NCBI GenBank assembly: GCA_965199715.1
Contig: OZ241322.1
Coordinates: 160,001-224,000, forward strand
DNA from: Vicinamibacteria bacterium
Lineage (GTDB): Bacteria > Acidobacteriota > Vicinamibacteria > Marinacidobacterales > Marinacidobacteraceae
Length of the DNA: 64,000 nucleotides
Reading direction: 5' to 3'
How positions within the stretch are numbered: the first letter of the stretch is position 1; each line of letters starts with the position of its first letter. The position numbers were made by a program, and so were the translations under genes. Under the pieces are notes generated by a model. That model ran no database searches. It had not been told where the DNA came from and saw nothing but the letters and a program-made list of their open reading frames with translations. This document shows positions 9,501 to 30,173 of the stretch, piece by piece.

Positions 9501-12500
9501 TCGCGCGCCGGCGGGAGCGCTCGGCGCGCTCCCGCCACTCCGGGGCATGATTGCCCCGGCCTCATTGAAGCCACGTCACGAGCAGGTCCTCCACGTCCGT
9601 CATGCCCCCACTCCGGGGCATGATTGCCCCGGCCTCATTGAAGCGCCGCGTACACCGCAATGATCGAGCAGCCCGGCGCGCCACTCCGGGGCATGATTGC
9701 CCCGGCCTCATTGAAGCTCGACCGCCGCCGACGTTGCCGCGCCCTCCGGTTCCGCCCCACTCCGGGGCATGATTGCCCCGGCCTCATTGAAGCCCACGGC
9801 CCGGCGGTTGTGGTCTATCCCCAGCACTACCCCACTCCGGGGCATGATTGCCCCGGCCTCATTGAAGCCGCTATCCGCTCGGCTGCCAGTCTATGCCGAT
9901 GCGTCCCACTCCGGGGCATGATTGCCCCGGCCTCATTGAAGCAGATTGCTGGTGAATTCGTGGGAAGCGGTCATAAGCGCCCCACTCCGGGGCATGATTG
10001 CCCCGGCCTCATTGAAGCACGCTCGGCTGACGCAGTCGGCTGACGCCCCGCTGGACCACTCCGGGGCATGATTGCCCCGGCCTCATTGAAGCAACGCCGA
10101 AAGCTGGGCGGTTAGCGGTATCGCCGCCTCATACCACTCCGGGGCATGATTGCCCCGGCCTCATTGAAGCAGGACGGCGCGCCCGCCGAGAAGCGCTCGC
10201 TCCGGGACCACTCCGGGGCATGATTGCCCCGGCCTCATTGAAGCTGGCCCGTCGGCATGTGGCCGCCCGGCCACTGGCCCTGCCCACTCCGGGGCATGAT
10301 TGCCCCGGCCTCATTGAAGCCGGAGGAGTGGTCTCGGGGGCGGGAGAGTCATTGCTCACCACTCCGGGGCATGATTGCCCCGGCCTCATTGAAGCTCCGC
10401 CGCCCGGAGCGAATACATGGCGGTCCCGGATTCCACTCCGGGGCATGATTGCCCCGGCCTCATTGAAGCGCCAGCCGGGACTCAGTCCGGTCCCGGAAGC
10501 GCAGCCCACTCCGGGGCATGATTGCCCCGGCCTCATTGAAGCTTCGTCGCGGCCACGGCCGCCCTGTGGTACCTCGCAGGCCCACTCCGGGGCATGATTG
10601 CCCCGGCCTCATTGAAGCAAGGCGAGCCCGTGGACGCCGATGCAGTGGGAAGCGTACCACTCCGGGGCATGATTGCCCCGGCCTCATTGAAGCCCGGCAA
10701 GGATGAAATACCACGCCTCGGCCATCATGCCACTCCGGGGCATGATTGCCCCGGCCTCATTGAAGCATGGTTTCACCATCGGGATGCGAAACCACTCCAT
10801 CGCTAACCACTCCGGGGCATGATTGCCCCGGCCTCATTGAAGCTGTCTACTGCGAAATGGCCATTTCGGGGGCTGATCGTCCACTCCGGGGCATGATTGC
10901 CCCGGCCTCATTGAAGCCCGCGGCGAAACCGGGAGGAAGGTCGAGGCCGTGCTTCCCCACTCCGGGGCATGATTGCCCCGGCCTCATTGAAGCTCGGGCG
11001 GCGGCCGCCGCCACCGGGCGAGGGCATTCGCCACTCCGGGGCATGATTGCCCCGGCCTCATTGAAGCAAGCCGGCCATCGACGTCGGGATCGCGTCGATC
11101 AGGGCCCACTCCGGGGCATGATTGCCCCGGCCTCATTGAAGCGACTCAGCCGCGAGGGGCGGCAGCCTCGGGCCGTCGACACTCCGGGGCATGATTGCCC
11201 CGGCCTCATTGAAGCCCGGCCGCTTCGAGCGCGCGTCGTTTCGCTTCCGGCATCGCCCACTCCGGGGCATGATTGCCCCGGCCTCATTGAAGCGCCTCCG
11301 GGGTGGCCGGCTGGTTCTCCGGGCTGCTGGCCACTCCGGGGCATGATTGCCCCGGCCTCATTGAAGCTCGGCGGCTCGCAACGAGTACGAGGCCTCGCCT
11401 CGCTGACCACTCCGGGGCATGATTGCCCCGGCCTCATTGAAGCGGCGACGCGAACGTGACGCTCGCCGCCTCGGGCGATACCCACTCCGGGGCATGATTG
11501 CCCCGGCCTCATTGAAGCTCACCGCCGGTAGCGACGAGGTGCCCTACCGAGTGACCACTCCGGGGCATGATTGCCCCGGCCTCATTGAAGCAGCCAGAGG
11601 CCGCCCAGTAGTCGGCCTCAAGGGCTAGCCACTCCGGGGCATGATTGCCCCGGCCTCATTGAAGCTCGGCGTTCGGCGCCGCCCCGGTATATGGGGCGCT
11701 GCCCACTCCGGGGCATGATTGCCCCGGCCTCATTGAAGCCGTCGTCCCGGCAGCGTTCAGGCCGAGCAGCGCCGCCCACTCCGGGGCATGATTGCCCCGG
11801 CCTCATTGAAGCCGCTTCTGGCGCGCGCGGCGCGAGGGGCAGGACGTGGAGCCACTCCGGGGCATGATTGCCCCGGCCTCATTGAAGCGCGGATACATTC
11901 ATCCGCGCCAATCTCCATGGCGTGGCACCCACTCCGGGGCATGATTGCCCCGGCCTCATTGAAGCGCTCGCTACATGAAAGGACGCATCGTCTCGCGAAG
12001 GTCCCACTCCGGGGCATGATTGCCCCGGCCTCATTGAAGCACCACGCCTCCCACGGCGAGTGCGATTGCGAGTGCTACCCACTCCGGGGCATGATTGCCC
12101 CGGCCTCATTGAAGCACGACGTGTGGGAGCTCCGCGTGCTCTTTTTCCCGGCCACTCCGGGGCATGATTGCCCCGGCCTCATTGAAGCGCGCGGGCGAGC
12201 CGCCGCCGCTACGCGTACTCGATCGCGCCACTCCGGGGCATGATTGCCCCGGCCTCATTGAAGCCCAGACCGCCCCCGAGTCGGCCTCTCATCCCAGACC
12301 GCCACTCCGGGGCATGATTGCCCCGGCCTCATTGAAGCCGGGGTACCCCCAGCCCCCTCGGGGCTAGGTACCCCCACCACTCCGGGGCATGATTGCCCCG
12401 GCCTCATTGAAGCCGGAGCTGGAAGAGGCTCGCTCCGGTCGGGGCGCTGGTCCACTCCGGGGCATGATTGCCCCGGCCTCATTGAAGCAGGCTCGCGTGC

Positions 12501-15500
12501 CTGTTGGTCAGCCTGTCCACCGCGAGCCCACTCCGGGGCATGATTGCCCCGGCCTCATTGAAGCCGGAACGAGGACGGCGGAGCGTGCACGGCGGACGAG
12601 GCCACTCCGGGGCATGATTGCCCCGGCCTCATTGAAGCCCGGCCGGCTACTTTCCTCCGGGGTACTTCCCGCCGGCCACTCCGGGGCATGATTGCCCCGG
12701 CCTCATTGAAGCAGGCGGTTATCCCCAGCTGGATTTCGCGCGTCGGCAACGCCACTCCGGGGCATGATTGCCCCGGCCTCATTGAAGCCATCCGATCCAA
12801 TGGTTGTTTCAGTGTCGGATGAAACCACTCCGGGGCATGATTGCCCCGGCCTCATTGAAGCGGATAACGCGCCTAATAGGCGATAGCGCAACGCCTTCAG
12901 CCCACTCCGGGGCATGATTGCCCCGGCCTCATTGAAGCGAGGAGCATGACTCCATCGGGCGGCTCGCGGACGCCCGCCCACTCCGGGGCATGATTGCCCC
13001 GGCCTCATTGAAGCAGATCGGGGCGGACGCGACCACTGATACGAGCACCGGGCCACTCCGGGGCATGATTGCCCCGGCCTCATTGAAGCCCAATTTGAAA
13101 TCCTCTTGCCGTAGAGCGCGCGCAACCCCACTCCGGGGCATGATTGCCCCGGCCTCATTGAAGCACTACACGTTTTCATAGCGTGTTAGGCTTCCATCAA
13201 TGACCACTCCGGGGCATGATTGCCCCGGCCTCATTGAAGCATGGCGCGGACCGCCGCGAAGATGCGCGCCGACGAGCCACTCCGGGGCATGATTGCCCCG
13301 GCCTCATTGAAGCCCGAAATTCGACAGGTCGCACGTGGCCCGGAGCCTCACCACTCCGGGGCATGATTGCCCCGGCCTCATTGAAGCCGGGAAGGAGCGC
13401 CTGAAGGCGCGGTAGCGATCCGCCCACTCCGGGGCATGATTGCCCCGGCCTCATTGAAGCGGCAGCTGCTCCCGCTGAACGGTACGCGGGTGACCCATCC
13501 ACTCCGGGGCATGATTGCCCCGGCCTCATTGAAGCCGCGATGTAAAGAAACATCGCCAAGGACGCGCCTATCCACTCCGGGGCATGATTGCCCCGGCCTC
13601 ATTGAAGCCCAATAACGATTGATACGCGAAGGGAAATGCATGGATAGGCCACTCCGTCCCACTCCGGGGCATGATTGCCCCGGCCTCATTGAAGCGTCAG
13701 CCGGACGAATGCGATGTTTGATGGTCTCGGCGCCACTCCGGGGCATGATTGCCCCGGCCTCATTGAAGCAATCCGAGCCGCGTAGTGCCGTCCCATATGA
13801 CTCCAGCCACTCCGGGGCATGATTGCCCCGGCCTCATTGAAGCCATTTACACGGGCGAAACAGGTGTCGAGAAGTTGTACGCCACTCCGGGGCATGATTG
13901 CCCCGGCCTCATTGAAGCATTCGCCACGTCGGCGCGCGGGAAAGCTGGCGGCGGGACCACTCCGGGGCATGATTGCCCCGGCCTCATTGAAGCTGTAGTT
14001 CATGGTTTGCTCCTTGTGGTGGGGTGCCGGGCCCACTCCGGGGCATGATTGCCCCGGCCTCATTGAAGCCGGGGTACCCCCAGCCCCCTCGGGGCAGGCT
14101 ACCCCCAGCCACTCCGGGGCATGATTGCCCCGGCCTCATTGAAGCACCTTTGGGGACCGAGATTTCCGTGCGGGTGGGCATGAGCCACTCCGGGGCATGA
14201 TTGCCCCGGCCTCATTGAAGCGTCGAAGGCGCAGTCGTAGTCGATCCGGTATCGCGAGCCCACTCCGGGGCATGATTGCCCCGGCCTCATTGAAGCGACA
14301 CCGCGATCGGCGCGCAGGGCACGACGCCTTTCACCACTCCGGGGCATGATTGCCCCGGCCTCATTGAAGCGCGGGCCGGATCAAGCGCTTCATCCTCCCG
14401 CCCGGCCGGCCACTCCGGGGCATGATTGCCCCGGCCTCATTGAAGCTGCATGAGCTTCCGGCCGACCACCGGCAGGGGCCCGGCCCACTCCGGGGCATGA
14501 TTGCCCCGGCCTCATTGAAGCGACGTACCGGTGCTCGTGGGGGCGGAAATCGGGGCTGACCACTCCGGGGCATGATTGCCCCGGCCTCATTGAAGCGGGT
14601 TGATGACGCCGCCTCCTCCCGCCGCCACCCGTGCCCACTCCGGGGCATGATTGCCCCGGCCTCATTGAAGCCCCAATCACGCGCGCGAGAAGGACGTTCC
14701 GCGCGTCGCCCACTCCGGGGCATGATTGCCCCGGCCTCATTGAAGCGAGAGCCTTGTACAGCCTCAAAAAAAAATGATCGTCGGGCCACTCCGGGGCATG
14801 ATTGCCCCGGCCTCATTGAAGCCCGTTCCGAGCTCGGCGCGCCGGAGCGTAGCCATCGGGACCACTCCGGGGCATGATTGCCCCGGCCTCATTGAAGCGA
14901 TGGAATGAAAATCTCGACGGAGAAAGCGGCGGAATCACCACTCCGGGGCATGATTGCCCCGGCCTCATTGAAGCCGGCACGTCACAGGTCCGCGTCACAG
15001 TACGTCGCTGAATCCACTCCGGGGCATGATTGCCCCGGCCTCATTGAAGCAGGTCGCGGCGATCGAAAGGACGCCTCGGCGGCGGATCCACTCCGGGGCA
15101 TGATTGCCCCGGCCTCATTGAAGCACCTGGATGGGGCCGGGGGCGCCCGTCCCGCCGCCCCCCACTCCGGGGCATGATTGCCCCGGCCTCATTGAAGCCT
15201 CGAGGGATGGCCATGCATCGCGTAGGGCACACGCACCACTCCGGGGCATGATTGCCCCGGCCTCATTGAAGCATCACGGTCAAGTCGTCGCCGCCACAAC
15301 GTTCAATGCCCACTCCGGGGCATGATTGCCCCGGCCTCATTGAAGCGACGGGCAGGCGAATAGGCCGACCGTCGCCATCGATCCCACTCCGGGGCATGAT
15401 TGCCCCGGCCTCATTGAAGCTTTCGCGCCCCCCGCCGCCGTATCCAGTACGCCCGAGACCACTCCGGGGCATGATTGCCCCGGCCTCATTGAAGCCCGTC

Positions 15501-18500
15501 TTTTTTCAGCCGGACGACGACCGGATCATCGACCACTCCGGGGCATGATTGCCCCGGCCTCATTGAAGCAAGAATCCTGAAGCCGCCGCCGGACTCATGC
15601 TCATTTCCACTCCGGGGCATGATTGCCCCGGCCTCATTGAAGCATCTACGCGGGCGAGACAGGGCGCAAGACGGCGCATCCACTCCGGGGCATGATTGCC
15701 CCGGCCTCATTGAAGCCGACCTCGGTGCCCTCGGCTGAGGCTATCCGTACTCCACTCCGGGGCATGATTGCCCCGGCCTCATTGAAGCTAGGCACAAAAA
15801 AGCCCCCCGAAGAGCGACTCCGGGGGGGCCACTCCGGGGCATGATTGCCCCGGCCTCATTGAAGCACGTTGACTTTGGCTCCTATCGCCGGTTCGTCCGG
15901 CGGCCACTCCGGGGCATGATTGCCCCGGCCTCATTGAAGCGGAATTCGGGTGGCCGACAGCGTTCGCGTTTGTGGCCCACTCCGGGGCATGATTGCCCCG
16001 GCCTCATTGAAGCCGTGATTTCGGCCGCCCAGTGGCCGGATATGGCCCTGCCCACTCCGGGGCATGATTGCCCCGGCCTCATTGAAGCGCTACCGGCTCG
16101 ATCTGGCAGCTGCGCGCGGTCCTTCGCCACTCCGGGGCATGATTGCCCCGGCCTCATTGAAGCAAAGACCATCACGGAGATCATACGTCCTAGCGAGTCC
16201 TGCCACTCCGGGGCATGATTGCCCCGGCCTCATTGAAGCCTGCACACGGAATCCGAGGGCCCCCTCGGGGAGATCGGCCCACTCCGGGGCATGATTGCCC
16301 CGGCCTCATTGAAGCGCCACGTCCGCCAGCGTCAAGGTGCCGCCCGCCGGCCCCACTCCGGGGCATGATTGCCCCGGCCTCATTGAAGCCGGCAGCGGCG
16401 TACCGTGGCACGTGGGTGCACCAGTGCCACTCCGGGGCATGATTGCCCCGGCCTCATTGAAGCTCTTCATTGAATCAAACGATGATGGAAGTTCAATGCC
16501 AACCACTCCGGGGCATGATTGCCCCGGCCTCATTGAAGCGCTTCCGGCCCGCCCACTCAATCTGATCGCCTTCCCGGACCACTCCGGGGCATGATTGCCC
16601 CGGCCTCATTGAAGCCGGAAGGTTGGTTTCGGATGCGCTAATCAATGGAAACCACTCCGGGGCATGATTGCCCCGGCCTCATTGAAGCCCACATTCGGAA
16701 ATCGCGAAGGGAACGCGAGAGTCGCCACTCCGGGGCATGATTGCCCCGGCCTCATTGAAGCCGGCTACGCGCGAAGGCTCGCTGGCGAGGATCGACGCCC
16801 ACTCCGGGGCATGATTGCCCCGGCCTCATTGAAGCAGACCGCCCCCGAGTCGGCCTCAAGGGCTAGACCGCCGGCCACTCCGGGGCATGATTGCCCCGGC
16901 CTCATTGAAGCCGGTGTACGCCGCGAATCCGGCACGTTTCCCGGAGTCCACTCCGGGGCATGATTGCCCCGGCCTCATTGAAGCTTTGAATTCTCGCGCG
17001 ATTGGATTTCTAGTCGTTTGCCCACTCCGGGGCATGATTGCCCCGGCCTCATTGAAGCCCGCCGCACGTGGCGCGGCGGCGGAAGCGAAGAATCCACTCC
17101 GGGGCATGATTGCCCCGGCCTCATTGAAGCTTCCTTGGTGCGTCCATGCCAGTCATTCCATGACACCCACTCCGGGGCATGATTGCCCCGGCCTCATTGA
17201 AGCGCATCGGAGCGTGAAGGAGCATACAATGCGCCTATGCCCCCACTCCGGGGCATGATTGCCCCGGCCTCATTGAAGCTACCAAGCACCTCAAGCTCGC
17301 GACGACGCGCGCATTTCTCCCCACTCCGGGGCATGATTGCCCCGGCCTCATTGAAGCGTGGCGGCCCTGTGTGGCAAAGGTAACGCAGTGCGTCGCCACT
17401 CCGGGGCATGATTGCCCCGGCCTCATTGAAGCAAGGGCATCCACCATACGGTTCCACACGCCTGAAAGCCACTCCGGGGCATGATTGCCCCGGCCTCATT
17501 GAAGCACTGTTACATCCGACGTTGCGGCGGCAGCAGACACAACCCACTCCGGGGCATGATTGCCCCGGCCTCATTGAAGCTGTCCCCACATATCCACGCG
17601 CGATGATGGAATCTTTCCACTCCGGGGCATGATTGCCCCGGCCTCATTGAAGCCGCGCCCGTGGGCGCGTCTAAGGCGCCTAGGAGGCCCACTCCGGGGC
17701 ATGATTGCCCCGGCCTCATTGAAGCCGGATCTTGCTGACGTCCTTGGCGATCGCGTCTAGCCCACTCCGGGGCATGATTGCCCCGGCCTCATTGAAGCGA
17801 GGCATCGCGTCGGGTAGCCGAGCTGCCCGTCCCAGCCCACTCCGGGGCATGATTGCCCCGGCCTCATTGAAGCACTGGGCGACCGGCACGGTCGACGTGA
17901 TCGAGGCTATCCCACTCCGGGGCATGATTGCCCCGGCCTCATTGAAGCCACAGCATCGACGAATGCGGTCGGCTCGGCTGAGACCCACTCCGGGGCATGA
18001 TTGCCCCGGCCTCATTGAAGCCGTGGCACTCGCTAGGCGCAAGCCCGATGGAAACTCCCCACTCCGGGGCATGATTGCCCCGGCCTCATTGAAGCGGGAT
18101 AGCCGCGAATACCTTGCGCTACCACATGCGACCCACTCCGGGGCATGATTGCCCCGGCCTCATTGAAGCTAGACAACGTCGTCAAGCCGCTACTCGACGC
18201 GATATGCCCACTCCGGGGCATGATTGCCCCGGCCTCATTGAAGCGTGACCTTCCGCTTCTGGAAGGCGACTCCGCGGGATGCCCACTCCGGGGCATGATT
18301 GCCCCGGCCTCATTGAAGCAATAGGCGCGGGCGTGCCACTAGGGGCGCGTGTATCGCGCCACTCCGGGGCATGATTGCCCCGGCCTCATTGAAGCCGGCT
18401 CGCCGGGCGGCCGCCGGAGGCGCCGCATGTGACCACTCCGGGGCATGATTGCCCCGGCCTCATTGAAGCGTCCTGCTCACAAACACCAACGCATCCGAGT

Positions 18501-21500
18501 GAAACCCACTCCGGGGCATGATTGCCCCGGCCTCATTGAAGCATCCACTTCGCGAATGCATCCTCGGAGACTGGCTGCCCACTCCGGGGCATGATTGCCC
18601 CGGCCTCATTGAAGCTCGAGGCAGCTATCGCCTTAGACCGCGGCAAACGCGCCCCACTCCGGGGCATGATTGCCCCGGCCTCATTGAAGCAACAATCCTA
18701 CATTACGGTGCGGATCCGGGCGAGGATGTCCACTCCGGGGCATGATTGCCCCGGCCTCATTGAAGCCGGGATAATAACCCTATTGACACCGGGCATCAGT
18801 CTCGTGCCACTCCGGGGCATGATTGCCCCGGCCTCATTGAAGCGAGGCCTAGCCCGCGAGGTACCACAGGGCGGCCGTGGCCACTCCGGGGCATGATTGC
18901 CCCGGCCTCATTGAAGCTCCAGGGTGCCAGAGGTAGAGATAGACGGCGAGCCGGAGCCACTCCGGGGCATGATTGCCCCGGCCTCATTGAAGCTCAGGCC
19001 GAGGCAGTCGACGCGGCCGCCACCGCCGACCACTCCGGGGCATGATTGCCCCGGCCTCATTGAAGCCTAATCGCGTACCAACCGGAGCTCCGGTACCGGG
19101 AAAAACCACTCCGGGGCATGATTGCCCCGGCCTCATTGAAGCATCTTCATCAATCCTTTCATCCGATTCATTCATCAACCACTCCGGGGCATGATTGCCC
19201 CGGCCTCATTGAAGCTCTCTCCCTCCTAATTAGAGGTCTTAAGTAACGCGCCCCACTCCGGGGCATGATTGCCCCGGCCTCATTGAAGCGGATTCACGAT
19301 GCCGCCGCCACCCGCTACCACCTTCGCCCACTCCGGGGCATGATTGCCCCGGCCTCATTGAAGCTATGGCGCGTTCCACCGTGTGCGCAATGCCATGGAG
19401 CAGCCACTCCGGGGCATGATTGCCCCGGCCTCATTGAAGCGGGATTCTCGACAAGGTGCGTTGGGAACGCATCCACGGCCACTCCGGGGCATGATTGCCC
19501 CGGCCTCATTGAAGCGGGCGACTCGAGGCGCAAATGACGCCGGAGAAGCCGCCCCACTCCGGGGCATGATTGCCCCGGCCTCATTGAAGCCACAAGTGGC
19601 TCGTTTCGCTAGATAGATTTCTTTTGGTGCCACTCCGGGGCATGATTGCCCCGGCCTCATTGAAGCCCTGGTAGTCGGCCCCCGCGAGGATCGCGAGGGC
19701 GTCCCCACTCCGGGGCATGATTGCCCCGGCCTCATTGAAGCCAATCCTGCATGATGCCGACCGGATCGCCGTACGCGCCCCACTCCGGGGCATGATTGCC
19801 CCGGCCTCATTGAAGCCACCTCCCGGATGTCTCCGTGCTCGCGGCGCCGCCACCCACTCCGGGGCATGATTGCCCCGGCCTCATTGAAGCTTCGCGCCCA
19901 CCCGGAGCCGAGGCGAGGAGGCGACGCCACTCCGGGGCATGATTGCCCCGGCCTCATTGAAGCGTCGACGAGCATCGAGCCCCAGGTCGATCCGGCCATG
20001 CCCACTCCGGGGCATGATTGCCCCGGCCTCATTGAAGCGAATCGATTTGGCGCGCCTAGGCGACGCCTAGGCGACCCACTCCGGGGCATGATTGCCCCGG
20101 CCTCATTGAAGCCTCCGGCCCCAAGTACTCGACTCCGGGGCATGCGGCCTCATTGAAGCTGGGAGTTCGGCGCACTAGCTCGCCACTCCGGGGCATGATT
20201 GCCCCGGCCTCATTGAAGTTTGCTCAAAATAATGGCCGCCCACTCCGGGGCTGATTGCCCCGGCTCATTGAAGGGTTTCCGACGAGCCACTCCGGGGCAT
20301 GATTGCCCCGGCCTCATTGAAGCAAGCAATGCTACGGCCATCATTGCCCCGGCCTCATTGAAGCCGCATGATGGATACCACTCCGGGGCGCCGATTGCCC
20401 CGGCCTCAAGCCATAGCCACACCCACTCCGGGGCATGATTGCCCCGGCCTCATTGAAGCTCCTCCGTTCCCGCTCCGGCCCCGTCTCAGGCGAGCGCGCC
20501 ACTCCGGGGCATGATTGCCCCGGCCTCATTGAAGCCAACGCGCCCCCGCCTTCCAACCACTCCGGGGCATGATTGCCCCGGCCTCATTGAAGCCCGAAAG
20601 ACGAACGATGATCGTATCCGGATGGCGTTCTTACCCACTCCGGGGCATGATTGCCCCGGCCTCATTGAAGCCAGCCACTCCTTGGTTTCGCCCGCGAGGA
20701 TCGCGCCCACTCCGGGGCATGATTGCCCCGGCCTCATTGAAGCATGCGCCCTGATGCGCGCCAACAGGTCCTGTGGGACCCGGATTGCCACTCCGGGGCA
20801 TGATTGCCCCGGCCTCATTGAAAGCGCGCGAAGCAGACGGTGCGTCCGTGAAAGGTGCCATGCGGCGCCACTCCGGGGCATGATTGCCCCGGCCTCATTG
20901 AAGCACGCGCCGCGAGTTGGTGCGCCATTGGATTCGCGTGCCACTCCGGGGCATGATTGCCCCGGCCTCATTGAAGCGAAATCGCACCGGCCCGCGTGAG
21001 CTCAGCCCCATCCCCCACTCCGGGGCATGATTGCCCCGGCCTCATTGAAGCTGCTTCGGGCTGAGCCGCTCCGCCTCCGGGACCACTCCGGGGCATGATT
21101 GCCCCGGCCTCATTGAAGCCGGGAAAACGAAAAGGACCAGCGCGCGAATGAAGCCACCCACTCCGGGGCATGATTGCCCCGGCCTCATTGAAGCGGCCAC
21201 ACTTCCACGCTTGCCGCCTACCGCACTCCGCCCCACTCCGGGGCATGATTGCCCCGGCCTCATTGAAGCAGCCAGATGGCGACGCTCGTCCGGCCGGGTT
21301 TCCCCAGCCACTCCGGGGCATGATTGCCCCGGCCTCATTGAAGCAAGCGCTACGGCCACCATTGGGGCGCATGATGGATACCACTCCGGGGCATGATTGC
21401 CCCGGCCTCATTGAAGCCATTAGTTACGCCGGATCTCGCAACATACCGAAGGCCGACCACTCCGGGGCATGATTGCCCCGGCCTCATTGAAGCAGCGGCC

Positions 21501-24500
21501 GACCGTAGCGATTTCCCCGCCCAGCCGGAATCCACTCCGGGGCATGATTGCCCCGGCCTCATTGAAGCACCCAGCCGGGGAACGCGCCGGTGGGCCAGTA
21601 CCACCCACTCCGGGGCATGATTGCCCCGGCCTCATTGAAGCCTGATATGAAATCACTCAGAGCGATCATAGATGCCCAGTTCCACTCCGGGGCATGATTG
21701 CCCCGGCCTCATTGAAGCGGCTGGCGGACCGGCGGCATGAAGCTGGGCATGCTCTACCCCACTCCGGGGCATGATTGCCCCGGCCTCATTGAAGCGCCTC
21801 GACGCTGATGCCGGCGATGCTGGTGATCTGGGTCCACTCCGGGGCATGATTGCCCCGGCCTCATTGAAGCCCGGCGCGCCGCCGCGGCGAAAGGTCTCGG
21901 CGCAAGCGCACTCCGGGGCATGATTGCCCCGGCCTCATTGAAGCCTCATGCCTCGCGGTACTGCGTCTCGGCCGCATCGAGCCACTCCGGGGCATGATTG
22001 CCCCGGCCTCATTGAAGCATCGCAAGATCGCGGCGTGATTCAAGAGAATGATTCATCCACTCCGGGGCATGATTGCCCCGGCCTCATTGAAGCTCGTTCC
22101 AAGGCGCATCGTTTGCGACGACGCGCCAACCACTCCGGGGCATGATTGCCCCGGCCTCATTGAAGCATGGAGGACGACGCGGCGAATGCCGCAACTACTT
22201 CACCCACTCCGGGGCATGATTGCCCCGGCCTCATTGAAGCGACGTGCGCGTGCGCGCACCTACGCGATGCATGGCCACCCACTCCGGGGCATGATTGCCC
22301 CGGCCTCATTGAAGCGCCATAGCCGTCTGCCGTGGTTTCCGGCATCGCGACCCACTCCGGGGCATGATTGCCCCGACCTCATTGAAGCTATGTCCGTCCG
22401 ATTGGGCGGCAGGGGCAGGTCCGTCCCCACTCCGGGGCATGATTGCCCCGGCCTCATTGAAGCAAGAACCCAAGCGATGCGGAATGGCATAAGAACGCCG
22501 CCCACTCCGGGGCATGATTGCCCCGGCCTCATTGAAGCGCCATGATGGCCGAGGCGTGGGATTTCATCGCGCCCCGAGCCACTCCGGGGCATGATTGCCC
22601 CGGCCTCATTGAAGCCCGTATCGGTACGTCTCTTCCACTTCACGGATTTCGCCCCACTCCGGGGCATGATTGCCCCGGCCTCATTGAAGCCCCGCCGAAT
22701 ACGCGTCCCACGTGACTCCGCTCGCTCCGCCACTCCGGGGCATGATTGCCCCGGCCTCATTGAAGCCATGTTGTCGAGGTGGTTCCTTCCACCACGCCAA
22801 AGCGCCACTCCGGGGCATGATTGCCCCGGCCTCATTGAAGCGGAATCTGAATCGTGTCTCCACGTTCAGCGAATCCACCCACTCCGGGGCATGATTGCCC
22901 CGGCCTCATTGAAGCGCTCGCGTGGCACTAGACGTTCATGATGCGCCTGTCCCACTCCGGGGCATGATTGCCCCGGCCTCATTGAAGCTTCGCCGTAGTG
23001 GCGGCGTCGCCGCGCACGCGTTGGAGTCCACTCCGGGGCATGATTGCCCCGGCCTCATTGAAGCCCGACACTTCGCGTTGTGATGAAGACGTGTTGAACG
23101 CGCCACTCCGGGGCATGATTGCCCCGGCCTCATTGAAGCCACTCGCCATCATGATGGTAGGCGCGATGGTGGGATACCCACTCCGGGGCATGATTGCCCC
23201 GGCCTCATTGAAGCCGGTCCTTCCGCTGGGGATATCATCTCGTTCGGCGCCGCCCACTCCGGGGCATGATTGCCCCGGCCTCATTGAAGCCCACCTTGCG
23301 CGCGATCACTCATACCAACGCCCCACTGCCACTCCGGGGCATGATTGCCCCGGCCTCATTGAAGCTCGCAGAATGAAGTCAGGATAGTCGTCAATGGCGC
23401 CACCCACTCCGGGGCATGATTGCCCCGGCCTCATTGAAGCAATGTGGTTTCGCGTGGCCGCGAACAACGACTGCGTGCCACTCCGGGGCATGATTGCCCC
23501 GGCCTCATTGAAGCGCGAGCGTGATGAGCAGCGTCCTCGCGGGGTAGTCCGCCACTCCGGGGCATGATTGCCCCGGCCTCATTGAAGCCACGTCCCGGCG
23601 AGGCAAGTATGATCGCCCGCGCCTTCCACTCCGGGGCATGATTGCCCCGGCCTCATTGAAGCCGAGACAGGGTCGAGACAAAGATTCCATCATCGCGAGT
23701 CCACTCCGGGGCATGATTGCCCCGGCCTCATTGAAGCCACCGGGGCACCGGGCGAGTCCGGGGGCGCGTCCGGCCCACTCCGGGGCATGATTGCCCCGGC
23801 CTCATTGAAGCTCGGCTGCCCGGAGTGAATAGGAGGCCTCGCCGCGTTCCACTCCGGGGCATGATTGCCCCGGCCTCATTGAAGCCATCAGGGAAGTAAC
23901 CCACGCACTCCATATCTCACGTGGACCACTCCGGGGCATGATTGCCCCGGCCTCATTGAAGCCTCCGGCGCGCGCTCATGGCGGCTCGGGCCGCGCTGGC
24001 CACTCCGGGGCATGATTGCCCCGGCCTCATTGAAGCTAGGCGCGTGCGCGCGCCTTCCTACGGTTGAACCACGCCCACTCCGGGGCATGATTGCCCCGGC
24101 CTCATTGAAGCAAAGCCTAGAGGCGCAGCTTGGGGATACGACCGGCACCGTGCCACTCCGGGGCATGATTGCCCCGGCCTCATTGAAGCACTAGCACCTT
24201 GCGTCGCTATGTCTGGGCGCAAGTAACCACCACTCCGGGGCATGATTGCCCCGGCCTCATTGAAGCATCCTTCCACTCGCTAGGTAGCGATACCAGTCGC
24301 CTAGCCCACTCCGGGGCATGATTGCCCCGGCCTCATTGAAGCACTCCCGCTTGACGGTCGGCGCCGGCGCGCCGGTCGACCACTCCGGGGCATGATTGCC
24401 CCGGCCTCATTGAAGCGTGCAATACGCTCGCAACCACGGCATATCCAAGTTCGCCACTCCGGGGCATGATTGCCCCGGCCTCATTGAAGCCAACGCCATA

Positions 24501-25240
24501 CGTAACAGGACGCAATCCGCCGCCAGATGCCACTCCGGGGCATGATTGCCCCGGCCTCATTGAAGCTAGGAGCGCTCGCCGTCGGCGGTCTGGGCGCGAT
24601 CACGCCACTCCGGGGCATGATTGCCCCGGCCTCATTGAAGCAAGCACGTCATTAATGACGAGCGCGCCGACCGGAGCGAGCCACTCCGGGGCATGATTGC
24701 CCCGGCCTCATTGAAGCAATCGTGGCCACGGTGGAGCCTCCTTCCGTCGAGAGGCGCCACTCCGGGGCATGATTGCCCCGGCCTCATTGAAGCGGCCCTG
24801 CGCTCGCTGCCGGGCGACGCTGCTGAACCCCACTCCGGGGCATGATTGCCCCGGCCTCATTGAAGCCTTCGCACTTCCACTGTATCGCCGGATTCATAGC
24901 CTCCCCACTCCGGGGCATGATTGCCCCGGCCTCATTGAAGCACTCGCCTTATCCGTGGATATCTTCATGGAATCAAACCCACTCCGGGGCATGATTGCCC
25001 CGGCCTCATTGAAGCGCGACAATTTCCGCGAGCACTCCGGGGAAATCGCACTCCACTCCGGGGCATGATTGCCCCGGCCTCATTGAAGCCCAAAATCGAT
25101 CAGTTCCGCGCGAGTGTCTGTACGCTCCCCACTCCGGGGCATGATTGCCCCGGCCTCATTGAAGCATTCGGTTCGCCTTGGCTGAGGGCGAGCCGCTTCT
25201 TCCCCACTCCGGGGCATGATCGCCCCGGCCTGTTGGCAGG
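595..25240 (+). CRISPR. Large type I-G (I-U)-like CRISPR array, ~330 repeats of 37 bp, spacers mostly 35-41 bp
   Basis: Repeat CCACTCCGGGGCATGATTGCCCCGGCCTCATTGAAGC (hairpin CCGGGGCA/TGCCCCGG, 3' handle ATTGAAGC) recurs every ~74-75 bp. First copy at 595-631; degenerate terminal copy at 25204-25240. The count is estimated from the period, not counted exactly. Confidence 0.98.
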
Positions 25241-25253
25241 ATCACTGCATCCG

Positions 25254-25366
25254 GGAAGTCCCGCCACGGCGCCGTGGGCGGCGGGGTCATTCAAGAGTCG
25301 TTCTCGCTTCACTCATGCCGGAAAGTCGGAAGTCCCGCCACGGCGCCGTGGGCGGCGGGGTCATTC
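25254..25366. repeat. 39-bp perfect direct repeat pair flanking a 35-bp unique insert
   Basis: GGAAGTCCCGCCACGGCGCCGTGGGCGGCGGGGTCATTC at 25254-25292 and 25328-25366, with internal palindrome CCACGGCGCCGTGG. The second copy overlaps the stop codon of the S9 peptidase gene. Confidence 0.9.
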
Positions 25367-27328
25367 CGTCCGGTACTTGTCGAACCAGGCCACGATGTTC
25401 TGGATTTTCGCGATCAACTGGCTCGGCCTGCGGCTCATGTCATGGGACGCGCCGGGCAGGCGGACGACCGCCGTGTCGATTCCCTGGAACTTCAGGGCGT
25501 GGAACAACTGGTAGCTCTCCGAGAGCGGGGTTCGCAGATCGTCGGCGCCGGTGAGGATCATCGTGGGGGTGGTGACGTTGCCGGCGAGCGAGAGCGGCGA
25601 GAACTTCCAGTAGGGCTCGGGGTTCTCCCACGGCAGGCCCTCGTAGCGGCTGAAGTAGTAGCCGTACCAGTTGTCCGCCGTGAGCGTCTTGCTGATCCAG
25701 TTGACCACCGGCTTCTGCGAGACCGCCGCCCGGAAGCGGTCGGTCTTGCCGACGATCCACGCGGTCAGGATGCCGCCGGCGCTGCCGCCGGTCACGAACA
25801 GGTTGTCCTCGTCCACGTAGCCGCGCCCGATCGCGGCGTCCACCCCCGACATCACGTCGTCGTAGTCGTTGCCGGGGTAGTTGCGATAAAGCAGGTCGCC
25901 GAACTCCTCGCCGTAGCTCGTGCTGCCGCGCGGGTTCGTGTAGAGGACGACGTATCCCGCCGCCGCCATGAGCTGCATCTCCGCCGAGAAGCGGTCGCCG
26001 TAGTTGGAGATGGGGCCCCCGTGGATCTCGAGGATGAGCGGGTACTTGCGGCTCGGGTCGAAGTCGGGCGGCTTCACGATCCAGCCGTGGACCGGCCTGC
26101 CGTCGAACGAGCTGTCCCACCACAGTTCCTCGACCTCGCCGAGCGTCCGCTGCGAGAGCAGGTCCTCGTTGAGCGAGGTGAGTTGCCGGACGGACTGCCC
26201 GGGAGCGCCGACCGAGAGTTCGCCGGGCATGCCCGGAGTGCTCTGGTTGAACGCGAACGCGCCGGTGTCCGCCACCGAGAACGAGCCGCCGCCGTAGGGC
26301 CGCCCGTAGGAGGTGCCGCCGAGGCTCTCGCCGAGGATCGCGACCTCGCCGTCGAGCGTCGTGAACGCGACCTTGGAGTTGCCCTCGTCGTCGTACTGGA
26401 AATAGATGCGGTGTCCGTCCGCCGCCCAGACCGGGTTCGATACGCTGCGGTCGAGGTCCTCGGTGACCACCCGCGCGCCGCTGCCGTCGAGGTTCATCAC
26501 GTGCAGGCGGCTCACCTGGTACGTCCGCACTCGGTCGTCGTAGCCCACGAACGCGACCTGGCTGCCGTCGGGAGAGACGGCGGGGCTGTGGTCGGGGCCG
26601 TTTCTCGTCGTCAGCGCCCGGATTTCGCCGCCGTCGATGGGGGCGAAGTAGAGCTCCGAGTTCCGGTAGTCCATGACCCAGTCCTCGTTGCGGTTCGCCG
26701 AGAACACGAGCCCCGCACCGTCCGCCGTCCACGCCGGCGCGCTCGCGTGGTGGAAGTCGCCGGTCGTGACCTGCCTCGGGGTGCCGCCCGAGACCGGGAG
26801 CACGAAGACGTGGCTGTAGCCGAAGTCGAGGTAGCCCACGCCGTCCTGCCGGCTCTTGAAGCGGTCCTCCATGATCGGCGGGTCGGCCCAGTCGGCGCCC
26901 GGCGGCGGGCGGGGCGGGGCGGCGAGCTGCGGGGCCGGGTAGGGGACCAGCATGTTGAACGCGATCCGCTCCCCGTCGGGCGACCAGCGGATGTTCCGGG
27001 GCGCCTCCAGAAGCTGCGTCAGCGTCGCCGATTCGCCCGTGTCCATCCAGCGCAACTGGATCTGGCCGCCCGAGCTGTACGCGAGGCGGGTTCCGTCCGG
27101 GGACCAGCGCGGCGAGGAGCCCTCGGCGAGGCGGCGGTGGCCGGTTCCGTCGGCCCCGACGATCCACAGCTCGGAGCGCCGCCGGTCGCGCATGACGTCC
27201 ATCGACGTCCGCACGTACGCGATCTCGGTCCCGTCGGGCGAGATCTGCGGGTCCGCGGCGAACTCCAGTTGGAACACGTCCATGGGCTGGAACGGGATGA
27301 GGGCGGCGAAAAGAAGGGCGCCGGTCAT
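25361..27328 (-). CDS. S9 family (prolyl oligopeptidase/acylaminoacyl peptidase-like) peptidase, copy 2
   Basis: Starts MTGALLFAALIPFQPMDVF, with an ATGA overlap with the upstream paralog. Has WD40/TolB-like SPDG repeats, IHGGP, NPRGSTSYG, catalytic GGSAGG, D.RTP and C-terminal GASH. Confidence 0.9.
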   Translation of the reverse strand: MTGALLFAALIPFQPMDVFQLEFAADPQISPDGTEIAYVRTSMDVMRDRRRSELWIVGADGTGHRRLAEGSSPRWSPDGTRLAYSSGGQIQLRWMDTGESATLTQLLEAPRNIRWSPDGERIAFNMLVPYPAPQLAAPPRPPPGADWADPPIMEDRFKSRQDGVGYLDFGYSHVFVLPVSGGTPRQVTTGDFHHASAPAWTADGAGLVFSANRNEDWVMDYRNSELYFAPIDGGEIRALTTRNGPDHSPAVSPDGSQVAFVGYDDRVRTYQVSRLHVMNLDGSGARVVTEDLDRSVSNPVWAADGHRIYFQYDDEGNSKVAFTTLDGEVAILGESLGGTSYGRPYGGGSFSVADTGAFAFNQSTPGMPGELSVGAPGQSVRQLTSLNEDLLSQRTLGEVEELWWDSSFDGRPVHGWIVKPPDFDPSRKYPLILEIHGGPISNYGDRFSAEMQLMAAAGYVVLYTNPRGSTSYGEEFGDLLYRNYPGNDYDDVMSGVDAAIGRGYVDEDNLFVTGGSAGGILTAWIVGKTDRFRAAVSQKPVVNWISKTLTADNWYGYYFSRYEGLPWENPEPYWKFSPLSLAGNVTTPTMILTGADDLRTPLSESYQLFHALKFQGIDTAVVRLPGASHDMSRRPSQLIAKIQNIVAWFDKYRTE

Positions 27329-29295: not shown

Positions 29296-30173
29296 GCGAG
29301 TCGGTAGGCGAGTTCGAGTGCGTCCACGGGCCAGTAGATCTCTGGACGACCGGGGGCGCGGCAGTTGAGGACGGAGTCGCGCCACTGGGCGGGGATCGCG
29401 TCGAGGCCGTGCACGGCTCCCAGCAGCGCGCCGGCGATCGCGGCGTTCGTGTCCGTGTCGCCGCCGCGCATCACCGTATCGACCACGCCCTCCTCGAGGG
29501 ATTCGGCGCAATGAAGTTGGCGGATCGCGTTGGGGAAGGCGATGAGCACCCAGCCCATCTGGTGGACGTAGTCGTCCGGCGGGGGTTCGAAGAGCCTCGC
29601 ATCGGCGTCATCTCCGAGCCGGCGCATCTCGGCGACGACGTCCTCCGGGCCGGCGCCGGTGTGGATCGCGAAGGCGATTCCGGCGGCGAAGAGCGCGCTC
29701 GCCTGAAGGCAGACCTCGTTCGGGTGGGTGATGGCGGCGTCCTCGCGCGCCCACGCCATCACGTCCGCCGCCTCGCGCCGGGCGCCGAAGATCCCGAGCG
29801 GGCTGATCCGCATGAGCGCCCCGTTCGCCTCGCTTCTCGGCTTCGAATAGCCGTTCAGCCCGGCGCGGATCGTGTTGCCGCAGTCGAAGGGGTCGGAATG
29901 CAGCCAAGCGACGTAGCCCCGCTTCACCGCCTCCCGGTCGAAGCGCTCCAGCTCGACGAGCGACCGCGCCAGCGTCAGCGCCATCTCCGAGTCGTCGGTC
30001 GGCTGGCCCGCGAGCGTGTCGTGCGTCCCGCCGTCGGCGAGCTCCCGCACCCCGTCCGGGTACTTCGCCCGGATGCTCCGCGGGGTCTCGAACTCGACGA
30101 GGCTGCCGAGCGAGTCGCCCGCGAGCTGCCCGAGCAGGCACCCGGCGGCGCGATCCTCGAACGATCCGGCCAT
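29292..30173 (-). CDS. ADP-ribosylglycohydrolase family protein
   Basis: Motifs GCLLGQLAGDSLG, TDDSEM, NGALMRISP, THP and GGDTDTNAAIAGALLGA. Confidence 0.9.
   Translation of the reverse strand: MAGSFEDRAAGCLLGQLAGDSLGSLVEFETPRSIRAKYPDGVRELADGGTHDTLAGQPTDDSEMALTLARSLVELERFDREAVKRGYVAWLHSDPFDCGNTIRAGLNGYSKPRSEANGALMRISPLGIFGARREAADVMAWAREDAAITHPNEVCLQASALFAAGIAFAIHTGAGPEDVVAEMRRLGDDADARLFEPPPDDYVHQMGWVLIAFPNAIRQLHCAESLEEGVVDTVMRGGDTDTNAAIAGALLGAVHGLDAIPAQWRDSVLNCRAPGRPEIYWPVDALELAYRLA

What the first reader, a model, noticed from the sequence alone, without database searches (positions are those of the whole stretch)
25254..25366. Second repeat-spacer-repeat unit with an unrelated repeat, 13 bp after the array: candidate neo-CRISPR or regulatory mini-array
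Seen: a perfect 39-bp duplication flanks a 35-bp unique insert, so the period is 74 bp, the same as the main array. The duplicated segment is palindromic (CCACGGCGCCGTGG). Copy 1 plus the next bases reads TCATTCAAG, versus TCATTGAAG in the true repeat handle. Copy 2 includes the stop codon and downstream hairpin of the neighbouring peptidase gene, so the duplicated DNA looks like ordinary host sequence. Known: Cas1-Cas2 can integrate spacers at off-target hairpin sites and duplicate the target, and degenerate mini-arrays can encode crRNA-like regulators (CreA/CreR type). Inference: this is a natural off-target integration, placed where read-through from the array could transcribe it.
Basis: partly seen in the sequence, partly recalled or inferred. 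Interest (0 to 1): 0.75.

Follow-up and report, generated by a model that had tools for sequence, protein, structure and literature searches.

The report
Stray CRISPR spacer insertions outside array
Just past a giant CRISPR array, a 39-base stretch of host DNA was duplicated around a 35-base foreign-looking insert, and two more units of the same build sit inside the neighbouring cas genes, which looks like the spacer-inserting enzyme hitting the wrong DNA three times.

Summary
A perfect 39-nt direct repeat (25254-25292 and 25328-25366) flanks a unique 35-nt insert, 13 nt after the degenerate last repeat of a type I-G array of about 330 repeats. The 39-mer occurs only twice in the 2.66-Mb genome. 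It was not found in 54 related genomes or in three public collections. Unitigs from four runs of three studies carry both repeat-insert junctions.

The new result comes from a genome-wide scan for short-range duplications. It found two more units of the same build, both in the same I-G locus: 36+38+36 nt over the cas3 start, and 38+39+38 nt over the csb2 stop. No other duplication in the genome has this geometry. The native repeat is 37 nt and native spacers are 35-41 nt. The duplicated segments resemble neither the CRISPR repeat nor each other. The inserts are unique and AT-richer than the host. Each duplication keeps the neighbouring gene end intact.

Best reading, about 0.7: three ectopic Cas4/Cas1-Cas2 spacer integrations with target duplication. 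A CreA/CreR-type regulatory mini-array is not supported. One point is unexplained: the 3' 19 nt of the finding's insert resemble its left junction. No empty site or protospacer was found. This is a new natural member of a known kind.

The parts
595..25240 (+). Type I-G CRISPR array, about 330 repeats of 37 nt. Spacers are 35-41 nt in 310 of 320 measured intervals. The leader and cas operon lie upstream of the window.
   Evidence: Repeats match Rfam CRISPR-DR16. The cas3g, cas8g2, csb1, csb2, cas4g/cas1g and cas2 genes are at L001 9274-18337.
25204..25240 (+). Terminal degenerate repeat. Positions 1-28 are 96% identical to the consensus and the last 9 nt have diverged. This is the trailer end of the array.
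25241..25253 (+). 13-nt gap between the last repeat and copy 1. Its last 12 nt plus the first 7 nt of copy 1 resemble the 3' 19 nt of the insert.
   Evidence: Alignment 17 of 20 columns, shuffle p = 0.0015 and 0.0007.
25254..25292 (+). T1 copy 1, the duplicated host segment (39 nt, 77% GC, contains a 14-nt palindrome).
25293..25327 (+). S1, a spacer-like insert (35 nt, 51% GC), unique in the genome.
   Evidence: No exact match in viral contigs or genome contigs.
25328..25366 (+). T1 copy 2, identical to copy 1. It carries the last codon and the stop codon of the peptidase gene.
25361..27294 (-). S9-family (prolyl-oligopeptidase/Dpp5-like) peptidase gene with its stop at 25361-25363. The 5' limit given is the end of nucleotide homology to relatives, not a mapped start. 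Homology to relatives begins at 25367/25368. The protein ends KYRTE*, whereas relatives carry about 2-6 further residues after KYR(T).

Best explanation
The unit is the footprint of an ectopic (off-target) spacer integration by the locus's own Cas4/Cas1-Cas2 integrase, and it is one of three such footprints in this I-G locus. Inferred mechanism: the integrase, loaded with a prespacer of 35-39 bp, attacked two phosphodiester bonds on opposite strands about 37 bp apart in non-CRISPR DNA. Gap repair then duplicated the 36-39 bp between the cuts, giving target-insert-target. In the finding, the target was the last codon, the stop codon and the GC-rich palindrome behind the peptidase gene, 13 nt past the array. 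The other two targets were the ribosome-binding site and GTG start of cas3 (L001 9306-9415) and the last codons and stop of csb2 (L001 16216-16330). All three survived because the duplication leaves one intact copy of the gene end next to the gene. Shown here: the geometry, the uniqueness in the genome, the clustering in the cas locus, the lack of likeness to the CRISPR repeat, the non-host composition of the inserts, and a single Cas1 gene in the genome. Inferred: the enzyme responsible, the foreign origin of the inserts, and the order of events. The units probably make no working crRNA, because their repeats lack the cognate hairpin and 8-nt handle.
For: (1) Geometry matches the native system three times. 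T/S/T is 39/35/39 (period 74), 36/38/36 (period 74) and 38 with one mismatch/39/38 (period 77). The native repeat is 37 nt, and spacers are 35-41 nt in 310 of 320 intervals.
(2) Uniqueness and clustering. A genome scan over periods 31-400 (30-nt windows, at least 28 matches) gave 46 hits outside the array. Only 6 had a period that is not a multiple of 3, and 3 of those 6 are these units. All three lie in the roughly 12.5 kb of non-array island DNA in a 2.66-Mb genome. The other three have periods 115, 269 and 316.
(3) The duplicated segments are unrelated to each other and to the CRISPR repeat, as expected for target duplications and not for degenerate repeats.
(4) The inserts are unique in the genome. 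Their GC is 0.51, 0.58 and 0.59, against 0.715 (sd 0.075) for random genomic 37-mers, of which only 0.9% reach 0.514 or lower and 4% reach 0.59 or lower. Native spacers average 0.659.
(5) S2 and S3 show no likeness to their own flanks (p = 0.22-0.80), so these two are not tandem duplications.
(6) The genome has one Cas1, the intact I-G Cas4/Cas1 fusion with cas2 beside it. An array of about 330 spacers with aberrant units argues for a very active and not always precise integrase.
(7) T1 is not a REP element. It has 2 copies in the genome. There was no more than short chance-level matches (best E = 6.9e-4 over 26 nt) in 54 other genomes of the order, and 0 exact matches in metagenome contigs and genome contigs.
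(8) The gap from the csb2 stop to the conserved cas4 start is 129 nt here, or 52 nt without the 77-nt unit. In 3 relatives with an upstream ORF close by it is 52, 63 and 73 nt; a fourth has 150.
(9) Literature. Off-target integration that spawns new arrays is reported for E. coli (Nivala et al. 2018, seen only as cited in passages of 10.1101/148544 and PMC7054753). In vitro, P. furiosus Cas1-Cas2 makes full-site integrations at non-CRISPR sites spaced by one repeat length (passages of PMC6698737). Type I-U/I-G Cas4/1-Cas2 inserts mainly 36-bp spacers (passages of PMC6547450).
Against: No empty (unduplicated) site was seen for any unit. No genome of the order carries this I-G locus (0 of 54), and the nearest peptidase orthologues (90-91% amino-acid identity) have different downstream DNA. 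No protospacer was found for S1-S3. This is uninformative, because the native array of about 318 spacers also has no phage match and only one odd plasmid match. The 3' 19 nt of S1 resemble the left junction of its own unit (17 of 20 columns, p about 0.001 for that specific test), which simple integration of a foreign spacer does not predict. In a search of the whole island, such scores are at chance level. The three inserts are more alike than random native spacers: S1-S3 p = 0.006, S2-S3 p = 0.048, and 26 of 3000 random triples of native spacers score as well. This was noticed post hoc. Duplication lengths vary from 36 to 39 rather than being exactly 37. No shared target motif could be shown with three sites.
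Confidence: 0.7

Rival explanations
1. U1 is not an integration. It is a local duplication or recombination junction. One route is a 74-nt tandem duplication (slippage) whose left copy later decayed. Another is an illegitimate join made when the CRISPR-cas island recombined in from a related strain.
For: The 3' 19 nt of S1 (TCACTCATGCCGGAAAGTC) align with the 12 nt left of copy 1 plus the first 7 nt of copy 1 (17 of 20 columns; p = 0.0015 and 0.0007). Both sub-motifs are rare in the genome (10 and 9 occurrences on both strands) and co-occur only at these two places. The same part of S1 also resembles DNA just behind the orthologous gene of G003 (19 of 25 columns, p about 0.005 uncorrected over about 72 comparisons). 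The unit sits exactly at the right edge of a 37-kb segment (cobQ, cas genes, array) that is missing between the same two genes in L031, G022 and G015.
Against: The first 16 nt of S1 match neither flank, and the sequence right of copy 2 is conserved peptidase coding DNA, not S-like. This reading needs 39 nt with no change next to 19 nt with two small indels or four substitutions plus a 7-nt indel. It does not explain why two further units with the same CRISPR-like geometry, and inserts unrelated to their flanks, lie in the same locus. In a search of the whole island the S1 score is at chance level. The G003 likeness does not survive correction for the number of comparisons.
Confidence: 0.12
2. 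The units are selected regulatory elements. They could be crRNA-like mini-arrays (CreA/CreR type) or transcription/translation control modules placed at the three module borders of the locus: before cas3, before cas4/cas1, and after the array.
For: The positions are suggestive: the 5' region of cas3, the csb2-cas4/1 junction and the array trailer. Copy 1 of U1 plus the insert reads TCATTCAAG against TCATTGAAG at the repeat's 3' end. U2 creates a decoy start with a 22-codon upstream frame that ends 7 nt before the cas3 GTG (read). The inserts share weak motifs. An RNA-library run holds contigs across U1.
Against: Known regulatory mini-arrays are defined by likeness to the cognate repeat, a BLASTN match of 16 bp or more (passages of 10.1101/2023.03.03.530964). 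Here T1-T3 show none. No partial spacer match to a promoter in the locus was found; the longest are 11-nt matches inside coding DNA. Three unrelated 'repeats' could not all be bound by one Csb2/Cascade. Perfect or near-perfect copies and the absence of any relative carrying them give no sign of conservation. The promoter and terminator scans found nothing at U1 or U2.
Confidence: 0.06
3. The units are footprints or target duplications of some other mobile element or site-specific recombinase (att scar, miniature transposon).
For: A direct repeat flanking a short insert is the general signature of transposition.
Against: Target duplications of 36-39 bp are not known to me for transposases; casposons make about 14-15 bp (recalled, no call). 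The inserts have no terminal inverted repeats (read). Neither T1 nor the inserts occur elsewhere in the genome. There is no T1-like copy at the island's left junction. The sizes match this genome's CRISPR repeat and spacer lengths.
Confidence: 0.05
4. The duplication is an assembly artefact.
For: The array is long and repetitive. U2 and U3 were not checked against reads.
Against: For U1, short-read unitigs of 4 of 4 laid runs (3 studies) cover both T-S junctions with 0 differences. The insert's depth is similar to the flanks in X4 (242 against 217) and X5 (3.4 against 3.5). It is lower in X1 (64 against 90-117).
Confidence: 0.02

Closest known systems
Off-target ('neo-CRISPR') spacer integration by Cas1-Cas2 (Nivala, Shipman & Church 2018, Nat Microbiol). 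The paper is not held. It was seen only as cited in passages of 10.1101/148544 and PMC7054753. Its details are otherwise recalled.
   Same: A spacer-sized insert lies between two copies of a non-CRISPR target whose length equals the system's repeat. It occurs in a genome with an adaptation module.
   Different: This case is natural rather than produced by overexpression, and it is type I-G with a Cas4/Cas1 fusion rather than I-E. There are three events, all inside or at the edge of the cas locus itself. Each spans a gene start or stop. Duplication lengths vary from 36 to 39. No likeness to the leader-repeat junction could be shown.
Non-CRISPR full-site integration by Pyrococcus furiosus Cas1-Cas2 in vitro (PMC6698737; abstract and passages read)
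   Same: Paired cuts on opposite strands lie one repeat length apart at non-CRISPR sites.
   Different: That work was done in vitro on plasmids, and the sites shared positionally conserved bases with the repeat. Here the only shared feature noted is a C at the 3' end of all three targets and of the repeat, and three sites are too few to test it.
Regulatory mini-arrays / crRNA-like RNAs (CreA, CreR). Sources: 10.1101/2023.03.03.530964 (passages read) and 10.1101/2023.03.10.532045 (search listing and start of abstract only).
   Same: Two 'repeats' flank one spacer-sized sequence, in or beside a cas operon.
   Different: Those repeats are degenerate copies of the cognate CRISPR repeat, and the spacer partly matches a promoter. 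Neither holds here.
REP / MITE-like palindromic elements. These are seen behind the orthologous peptidase genes of relatives, for example the element repeated in L030 and shared by L007-L011.
   Same: A GC-rich palindrome behind a gene's stop codon.
   Different: T1 has only the two adjacent copies in this genome and none in relatives.

Membership tests
Ectopic Cas1-Cas2 spacer integration (neo-CRISPR unit) | A direct duplication of non-CRISPR target DNA whose length equals the system's repeat length | tested here: met
   T1 is 39 nt, T2 is 36 nt and T3 is 38 nt (1 mismatch; perfect core 33), against a 37-nt repeat.
Ectopic Cas1-Cas2 spacer integration (neo-CRISPR unit) | An insert of native spacer length | tested here: met
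   The inserts are 35, 38 and 39 nt. Native spacers are 35-41 nt in 310 of 320 intervals.
Ectopic Cas1-Cas2 spacer integration (neo-CRISPR unit) | An adaptation module present in the same genome | tested here: met
   An intact Cas4g/Cas1g fusion (757 bits, cut-off 560) and cas2 are present. It is the only Cas1 in the genome. Activity is inferred only from the size of the array.
Ectopic Cas1-Cas2 spacer integration (neo-CRISPR unit) | An insert of foreign origin, with a protospacer carrying the PAM (TTN for I-G/I-U per PMC6547450) | tested here: inconclusive
   The inserts are absent elsewhere in the genome and AT-richer than the host. No protospacer was found. Native spacers also lack matches.
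Ectopic Cas1-Cas2 spacer integration (neo-CRISPR unit) | An empty site (single target copy, no insert) in a close relative | not testable with these tools
   No relative carries the island or T1. Unitigs at k=31 cannot resolve a 39-nt repeat.
Ectopic Cas1-Cas2 spacer integration (neo-CRISPR unit) | A target that resembles the leader-repeat junction or the repeat | tested here: not met
   There is no significant likeness of T1-T3 to the repeat. Flank comparison by eye gave nothing consistent. I treat this as a tendency reported for other systems rather than a defining feature.
Regulatory mini-array (CreA/CreR, crRNA-like RNA) | Flanking repeats that are recognisable copies of the cognate CRISPR repeat (16 bp or more, per 10.1101/2023.03.03.530964) | tested here: not met
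   The repeat BLAST gives no hit in T1-T3. Alignment p = 0.92, 0.49 and 0.96. Rfam CRISPR-DR16 matches only native repeats.
Regulatory mini-array (CreA/CreR, crRNA-like RNA) | A spacer partly complementary to a cas or toxin promoter next to a PAM | tested here: not met
   The longest matches in the island are 11 nt and lie inside coding DNA.
REP-like dispersed palindromic element | Many dispersed copies in the genome or in relatives | tested here: not met
   There are 2 adjacent copies only at up to 6 mismatches. No more than short chance-level matches (best 26 nt at 92%, E = 6.9e-4) in 54 genomes of the order. There are 0 exact matches in two collections.
att sites of an integrated element | Core repeats that flank an element carrying an integrase | tested here: not met
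   Only 35 nt lie between the copies. There is no T1 copy or significant likeness at the island's left junction.
Simple tandem duplication | The insert equals the adjacent flank | tested here: not met
   U2 and U3 show no likeness (p = 0.22-0.80). In U1, only 19 of 35 nt are about 85% like the left junction.

The most novel reading that the evidence does not exclude
The Cas4/Cas1-Cas2 integrase of this symbiont acts preferentially in cis, on DNA of its own locus. It has seeded three one-spacer proto-arrays there, which would be snapshots of how new CRISPR arrays, or new regulatory 5' and 3' structures of cas genes, are born. The unit before cas3 already adds a decoy start and a short upstream frame, and the weak likeness among the three inserts would mean a special, non-random source of prespacers for ectopic events.
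Probability: 0.2. Interest if true: 0.8.

Novelty: new member of a known kind. Interest (0 to 1): 0.6.

Why it matters
Off-target integration is the proposed route by which new CRISPR arrays arise, and it is also a cost of adaptation. As far as I could see in the held literature, natural footprints are known only from circumstantial cases. I ran four searches. None listed a paper that describes integrations inside a cas operon; I read only titles, starts of abstracts and the passages named in this report, and supplements were not seen. A genome with three clean footprints gives natural target sites for a type I-G Cas4/Cas1-Cas2 complex whose site choice is uncharacterised. All three lie in its own cas locus and each spares a gene end through the duplication. 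This allows a direct test of whether the integrase prefers nearby DNA. It is also a warning for annotation: such units can be called as mini-CRISPRs, and they create spurious extended reading frames. Examples here are the ATG-started cas3 frame at L001 9274 and the TTG-started cas4/1 frame at L001 16271, which begins inside an insert.

Tried and rejected
REP element. Rejected: 2 copies in the genome, nothing in 54 genomes of the order, and 0 exact matches in metagenome contigs and genome contigs.

att scar of the island. The left junction (genome 148281-149750) was compared with the right junction. The best scores (23 and 26) are below the top of the shuffle range of 28-31.

Ancestral state from relatives. 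G001-G003 (same genus, 82-86% nucleotide identity in the gene) and metagenome loci L030 and L031 (90-91% amino-acid identity) were aligned. Homology stops at 25367/25368, and their downstream DNA is different and rich in REP-like elements, so no empty site is available.

Island relatives. No match to the cas3 5' region in 54 genomes of the order. In a sample of 400 other genomes of the phylum, the best cas4/1 match is 70% nucleotide identity and starts after U3.

Protospacers. None found for S1-S3. Searching the native array against phages gave nothing, and against plasmids gave one odd hit, so these absences carry no weight.

Hairpin strength of T1. It is not exceptional for its composition (z = 0.26 on the + strand and -1.16 on the - strand). 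The native repeat gives z = -2.9.

Terminator and promoter scans. Nothing at U1 or U2, so I make no promoter claim.

Older, decayed units. None found at lower thresholds.

Likeness of S1-S3 to the rest of the island. At chance level.

Depth of the insert unitig in X1. It is lower than the flanks, which could mean a mixed population, but short-unitig depths are too noisy to use.

RNA-library contigs over U1. They show neither strand nor transcription.

Nivala et al. 2018 is not held. Supplements of papers were not opened; those of 10.1101/2023.03.03.530964 might list I-G mini-arrays.

Unpublished genome. G033 was among the genomes searched. Only the negative counts ('no match in 54 genomes of the order') include it.
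Full report
WHAT IS THERE. The window is G000:C1:160001-224000 of a 2.66-Mb, 71.5% GC genome in two contigs. Window 595-25240 is one CRISPR array of about 330 copies of a 37-nt repeat. Spacers are 35-41 nt in 310 of 320 measured intervals, with a mode of 38. Upstream of the window, in locus L001, lie cas3g, cas8g2, csb1/cas7g, csb2, a cas4g/cas1g fusion and cas2. All score above the NCBIfam cut-offs for type I-G. A leader follows them. The repeats end in ATTGAAGC on the + strand and match Rfam CRISPR-DR16. The array is therefore read left to right. The repeat at 25204-25240, whose last 9 nt have diverged, is the trailer end.

THE OBSERVATION. Thirteen nucleotides after that last repeat, a 39-mer (T1) occurs twice without a mismatch, at 25254-25292 and 25328-25366. 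It flanks a 35-nt insert (S1, 25293-25327), giving a period of 74. T1 contains the 14-nt palindrome CCACGGCGCCGTGG. Its fold is not more stable than shuffles of the same composition (z = 0.26 and -1.16). Copy 2 holds the last codon and the TGA of a minus-strand S9 peptidase. T1 has only these two copies in the genome at up to 6 mismatches, and S1 has one. Logan unitigs of all four laid runs, from three studies of sponge metagenomes, cover both T-S junctions with no differences. These are k=31 unitigs. They therefore show that the insert and both its junctions exist. They cannot show that no insert-free allele co-exists. One of the runs may be the source of the assembly.

CONTEXT OF THE LOCUS. 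In metagenome locus L031 and in genomes G022 and G015, the peptidase gene lies 0.7-1.2 kb from a convergent gene that in G000 sits at 146289-148316. In G000, 37 kb (small ORFs, cobQ, the cas operon, the array and the unit) lie between them. None of 54 other genomes of the order matches the cas3 region. The I-G locus is therefore an island in this lineage, and the unit lies at its right edge. Nucleotide homology to relatives begins at 25367/25368, right after copy 2. The peptidase here ends KYRTE*, whereas the relatives read carry about two to six more residues. Those tails vary among paralogues, so I do not read this coincidence as a breakpoint. No copy of T1 and no significant likeness was found at the island's left junction.

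THE DECISIVE RESULT. I scanned the whole genome for short-range direct repeats. With exact seeds (at least 24 nt, spacing up to 400) there are 15 pairs outside the array. With 30-nt windows of at least 28 matches over periods 31-400 there are 46 hits outside the array. Forty of these have periods that are multiples of three and lie in a few coding-repeat loci. Of the six others, three are units of one design, all in the I-G locus:
- U1, the finding: 39/35/39, period 74.
- U2: L001 9306-9341 and 9380-9415 are identical over 36 nt, around a 38-nt insert (9342-9379), period 74.
- U3: L001 16216-16253 and 16293-16330 are 38 nt with one mismatch (perfect core 33 nt from 16221), around a 39-nt insert (16254-16292), period 77.

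The remaining three non-triplet hits have periods 115, 269 and 316. By my arithmetic from these counts, six duplications placed at random would put three or more in the roughly 12.5 kb of non-array island DNA with probability about 2e-6. No further, decayed units appear at lower thresholds.

ANATOMY OF THE THREE UNITS. The duplicated segments are unrelated to one another and to the CRISPR repeat (alignment p = 0.59-0.94 and 0.49-0.96). Each spans a gene end:
- T2 holds the likely ribosome-binding site, a GTG at L001 9400 and five codons of cas3. The NCBIfam model begins at nt 9418. Copy 2 keeps the gene intact. Copy 1 forms a decoy start with a 22-codon frame that stops 7 nt before the GTG (read).
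- T3 holds the last codons and the TGA (16244-16246) of csb2. Copy 1 keeps that gene intact, and the in-frame starts of cas4/1 nearest the conserved domain (TTG 16349, GTG 16361) lie after copy 2.
- T1 holds the peptidase stop.

The long frames that the ORF listing gives for cas3 (ATG 9274) and cas4/1 (TTG 16271, inside S3) are by-products of the insertions. The distance from the csb2 stop to the conserved cas4 LVPxRM codons is 129 nt here, or 52 without the unit. In three relatives with a close upstream ORF it is 52, 63 and 73 nt; a fourth has 150.

THE INSERTS. S1-S3 occur nowhere else in the genome. Their GC is 0.51, 0.58 and 0.59. Random genomic 37-mers average 0.715, and only 0.9% and 4% of them are as low. 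Native spacers average 0.659, with 8%, 23% and 25% as low. S2 and S3 are unlike their own flanks. No exact match was found in viral contigs (S1-S3) or in genome contigs (S1). The native array of about 318 spacers also finds no phage and only one odd plasmid hit, so the mobilome of this organism is simply not in these collections.

INTERPRETATION. A target duplication equal to the repeat length, enclosing an insert equal to the spacer length, is what a Cas1-Cas2 full-site integration leaves. Here this is seen three times, next to the genome's only Cas1, and nowhere else in the genome. The literature I could read agrees in kind:
- Off-target integration that can spawn new arrays is reported for E. 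coli, with circumstantial natural cases in two other species (passages of 10.1101/148544 and PMC7054753 citing Nivala et al. 2018; the paper itself is not held).
- P. furiosus Cas1-Cas2 makes paired cuts one repeat length apart at non-CRISPR sites in vitro (PMC6698737).
- The G. sulfurreducens I-U/I-G Cas4/1-Cas2 inserts mainly 36-bp spacers with a TTN PAM (PMC6547450).

The spread of duplication lengths (36-39) fits sites that lack the repeat's internal anchors. One or two bases of the 39 may also be chance identity between the insert ends and the flanks; both points are inference. Only insertions whose duplication restores a gene end would be tolerated in a gene-dense genome, which explains why all three span a start or a stop. 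Why all three lie in the cas locus is open. Local action of the integrase near its own gene, features of this long transcription unit, or events in a former host of the island are all possible; this is inference.

WHAT DOES NOT FIT. The 3' 19 nt of S1 align with the 12 nt left of copy 1 plus the first 7 nt of copy 1 (17 of 20 columns; p = 0.0015 and 0.0007 against shuffles for that flank test). The two sub-motifs co-occur only at these two places in the genome. A weaker likeness to DNA behind the G003 orthologue does not survive correction. In a search of the whole island, scores of this size are at chance level. If the likeness is real, there are two readings. S1 may have come from a homologous trailer, for example of a related island or strain. 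Alternatively, U1 may have a more complex history, such as a duplication or a recombination junction. The three inserts are also more alike than random triples of native spacers (26 of 3000 triples reach the same scores), but this was noticed post hoc. Neither point applies to U2 and U3, whose design is the same as U1's.

REGULATORY MINI-ARRAY. Known crRNA-like regulators are recognised by likeness of their repeats to the cognate repeat and by a partial spacer match to a promoter (passages of 10.1101/2023.03.03.530964; listing of 10.1101/2023.03.10.532045). T1-T3 fail the first test, and S1-S3 fail the second. The TCATTCAAG motif is real, but three of its nine bases come from the insert. Transcription of U1 is not shown: an RNA-library run holds contigs over 25192-25612, with no strand information and possible DNA carry-over.

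VERDICT. The best explanation is ectopic spacer integration by the I-G adaptation module (confidence about 0.7), as one of three such footprints. This is a new natural member of a known kind, of moderate to good interest. It offers natural off-target sites for an uncharacterised integrase and a testable hint of cis preference. The missing pieces are an empty site, a protospacer, and read support for U2 and U3. The negative counts over the order include the unpublished genome G033.

Noticed in passing
L001 9306-9415 (genome C1:151306-151415), upstream of the window: A second target-insert-target unit (36+38+36 nt, period 74) duplicates the ribosome-binding site, the GTG start and the first codons of cas3g. 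It creates a decoy start with a 22-codon upstream frame and a spurious ATG-extended cas3 ORF.
   Followed up: yes
L001 16216-16330 (genome C1:158216-158330), upstream of the window: A third unit (38+39+38 nt, one mismatch, period 77) duplicates the last codons and the stop of csb2, just before cas4/cas1. The TTG-started cas4/1 ORF begins inside its insert.
   Followed up: yes
window 20113-20560: A cluster of decayed repeats inside the array, with internal deletions, fragments of 12-22 nt and short or long 'spacers'. It may be an old array end or junction, so the giant array could be two arrays fused.
   Followed up: partly
window 632-688 and 1193-1247: Leader-proximal 'spacers' of 57 and 55 nt contain 22-23-nt fragments of the repeat. 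This suggests recent imprecise integrations or rearrangements at the active end of the array.
   Followed up: partly
window 8230-8276, 12342-12388, 14075-14125: Three spacers carry a similar internally repeated motif with a 25-nt period (consensus GGTACCCCCAGCCACCCCGGGGCTA). They look like repeated acquisitions from one kind of target. The single plasmid hit of the array (OZ026885.1, 84.7% identity, two pieces spanning array (window) positions about 8494-18103) may relate to them.
   Followed up: no
genome C1:148317-185367 (window up to 25367): A 37-kb segment (small ORFs, cobQ, the I-G cas operon, the array) lies between two convergent genes that are 0.7-1.2 kb apart in L031, G022 and G015. 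None of 54 other genomes of the order matches the cas3 region, so the locus is an acquired island.
   Followed up: partly
window 25361-29300, minus strand: Two tandem paralogues of the S9 peptidase lie here (relatives have two or three). The ORF listing gives one 1192-aa frame across both copies. The first copy ends KYRTE*, shorter than the relatives read.
   Followed up: partly
L030 4197-4500; L007-L011 downstream regions: Relatives carry REP-like palindromic elements behind the orthologous peptidase gene, for example a unit of about 70 nt repeated in L030. These elements are absent from G000 at this place.
   Followed up: no
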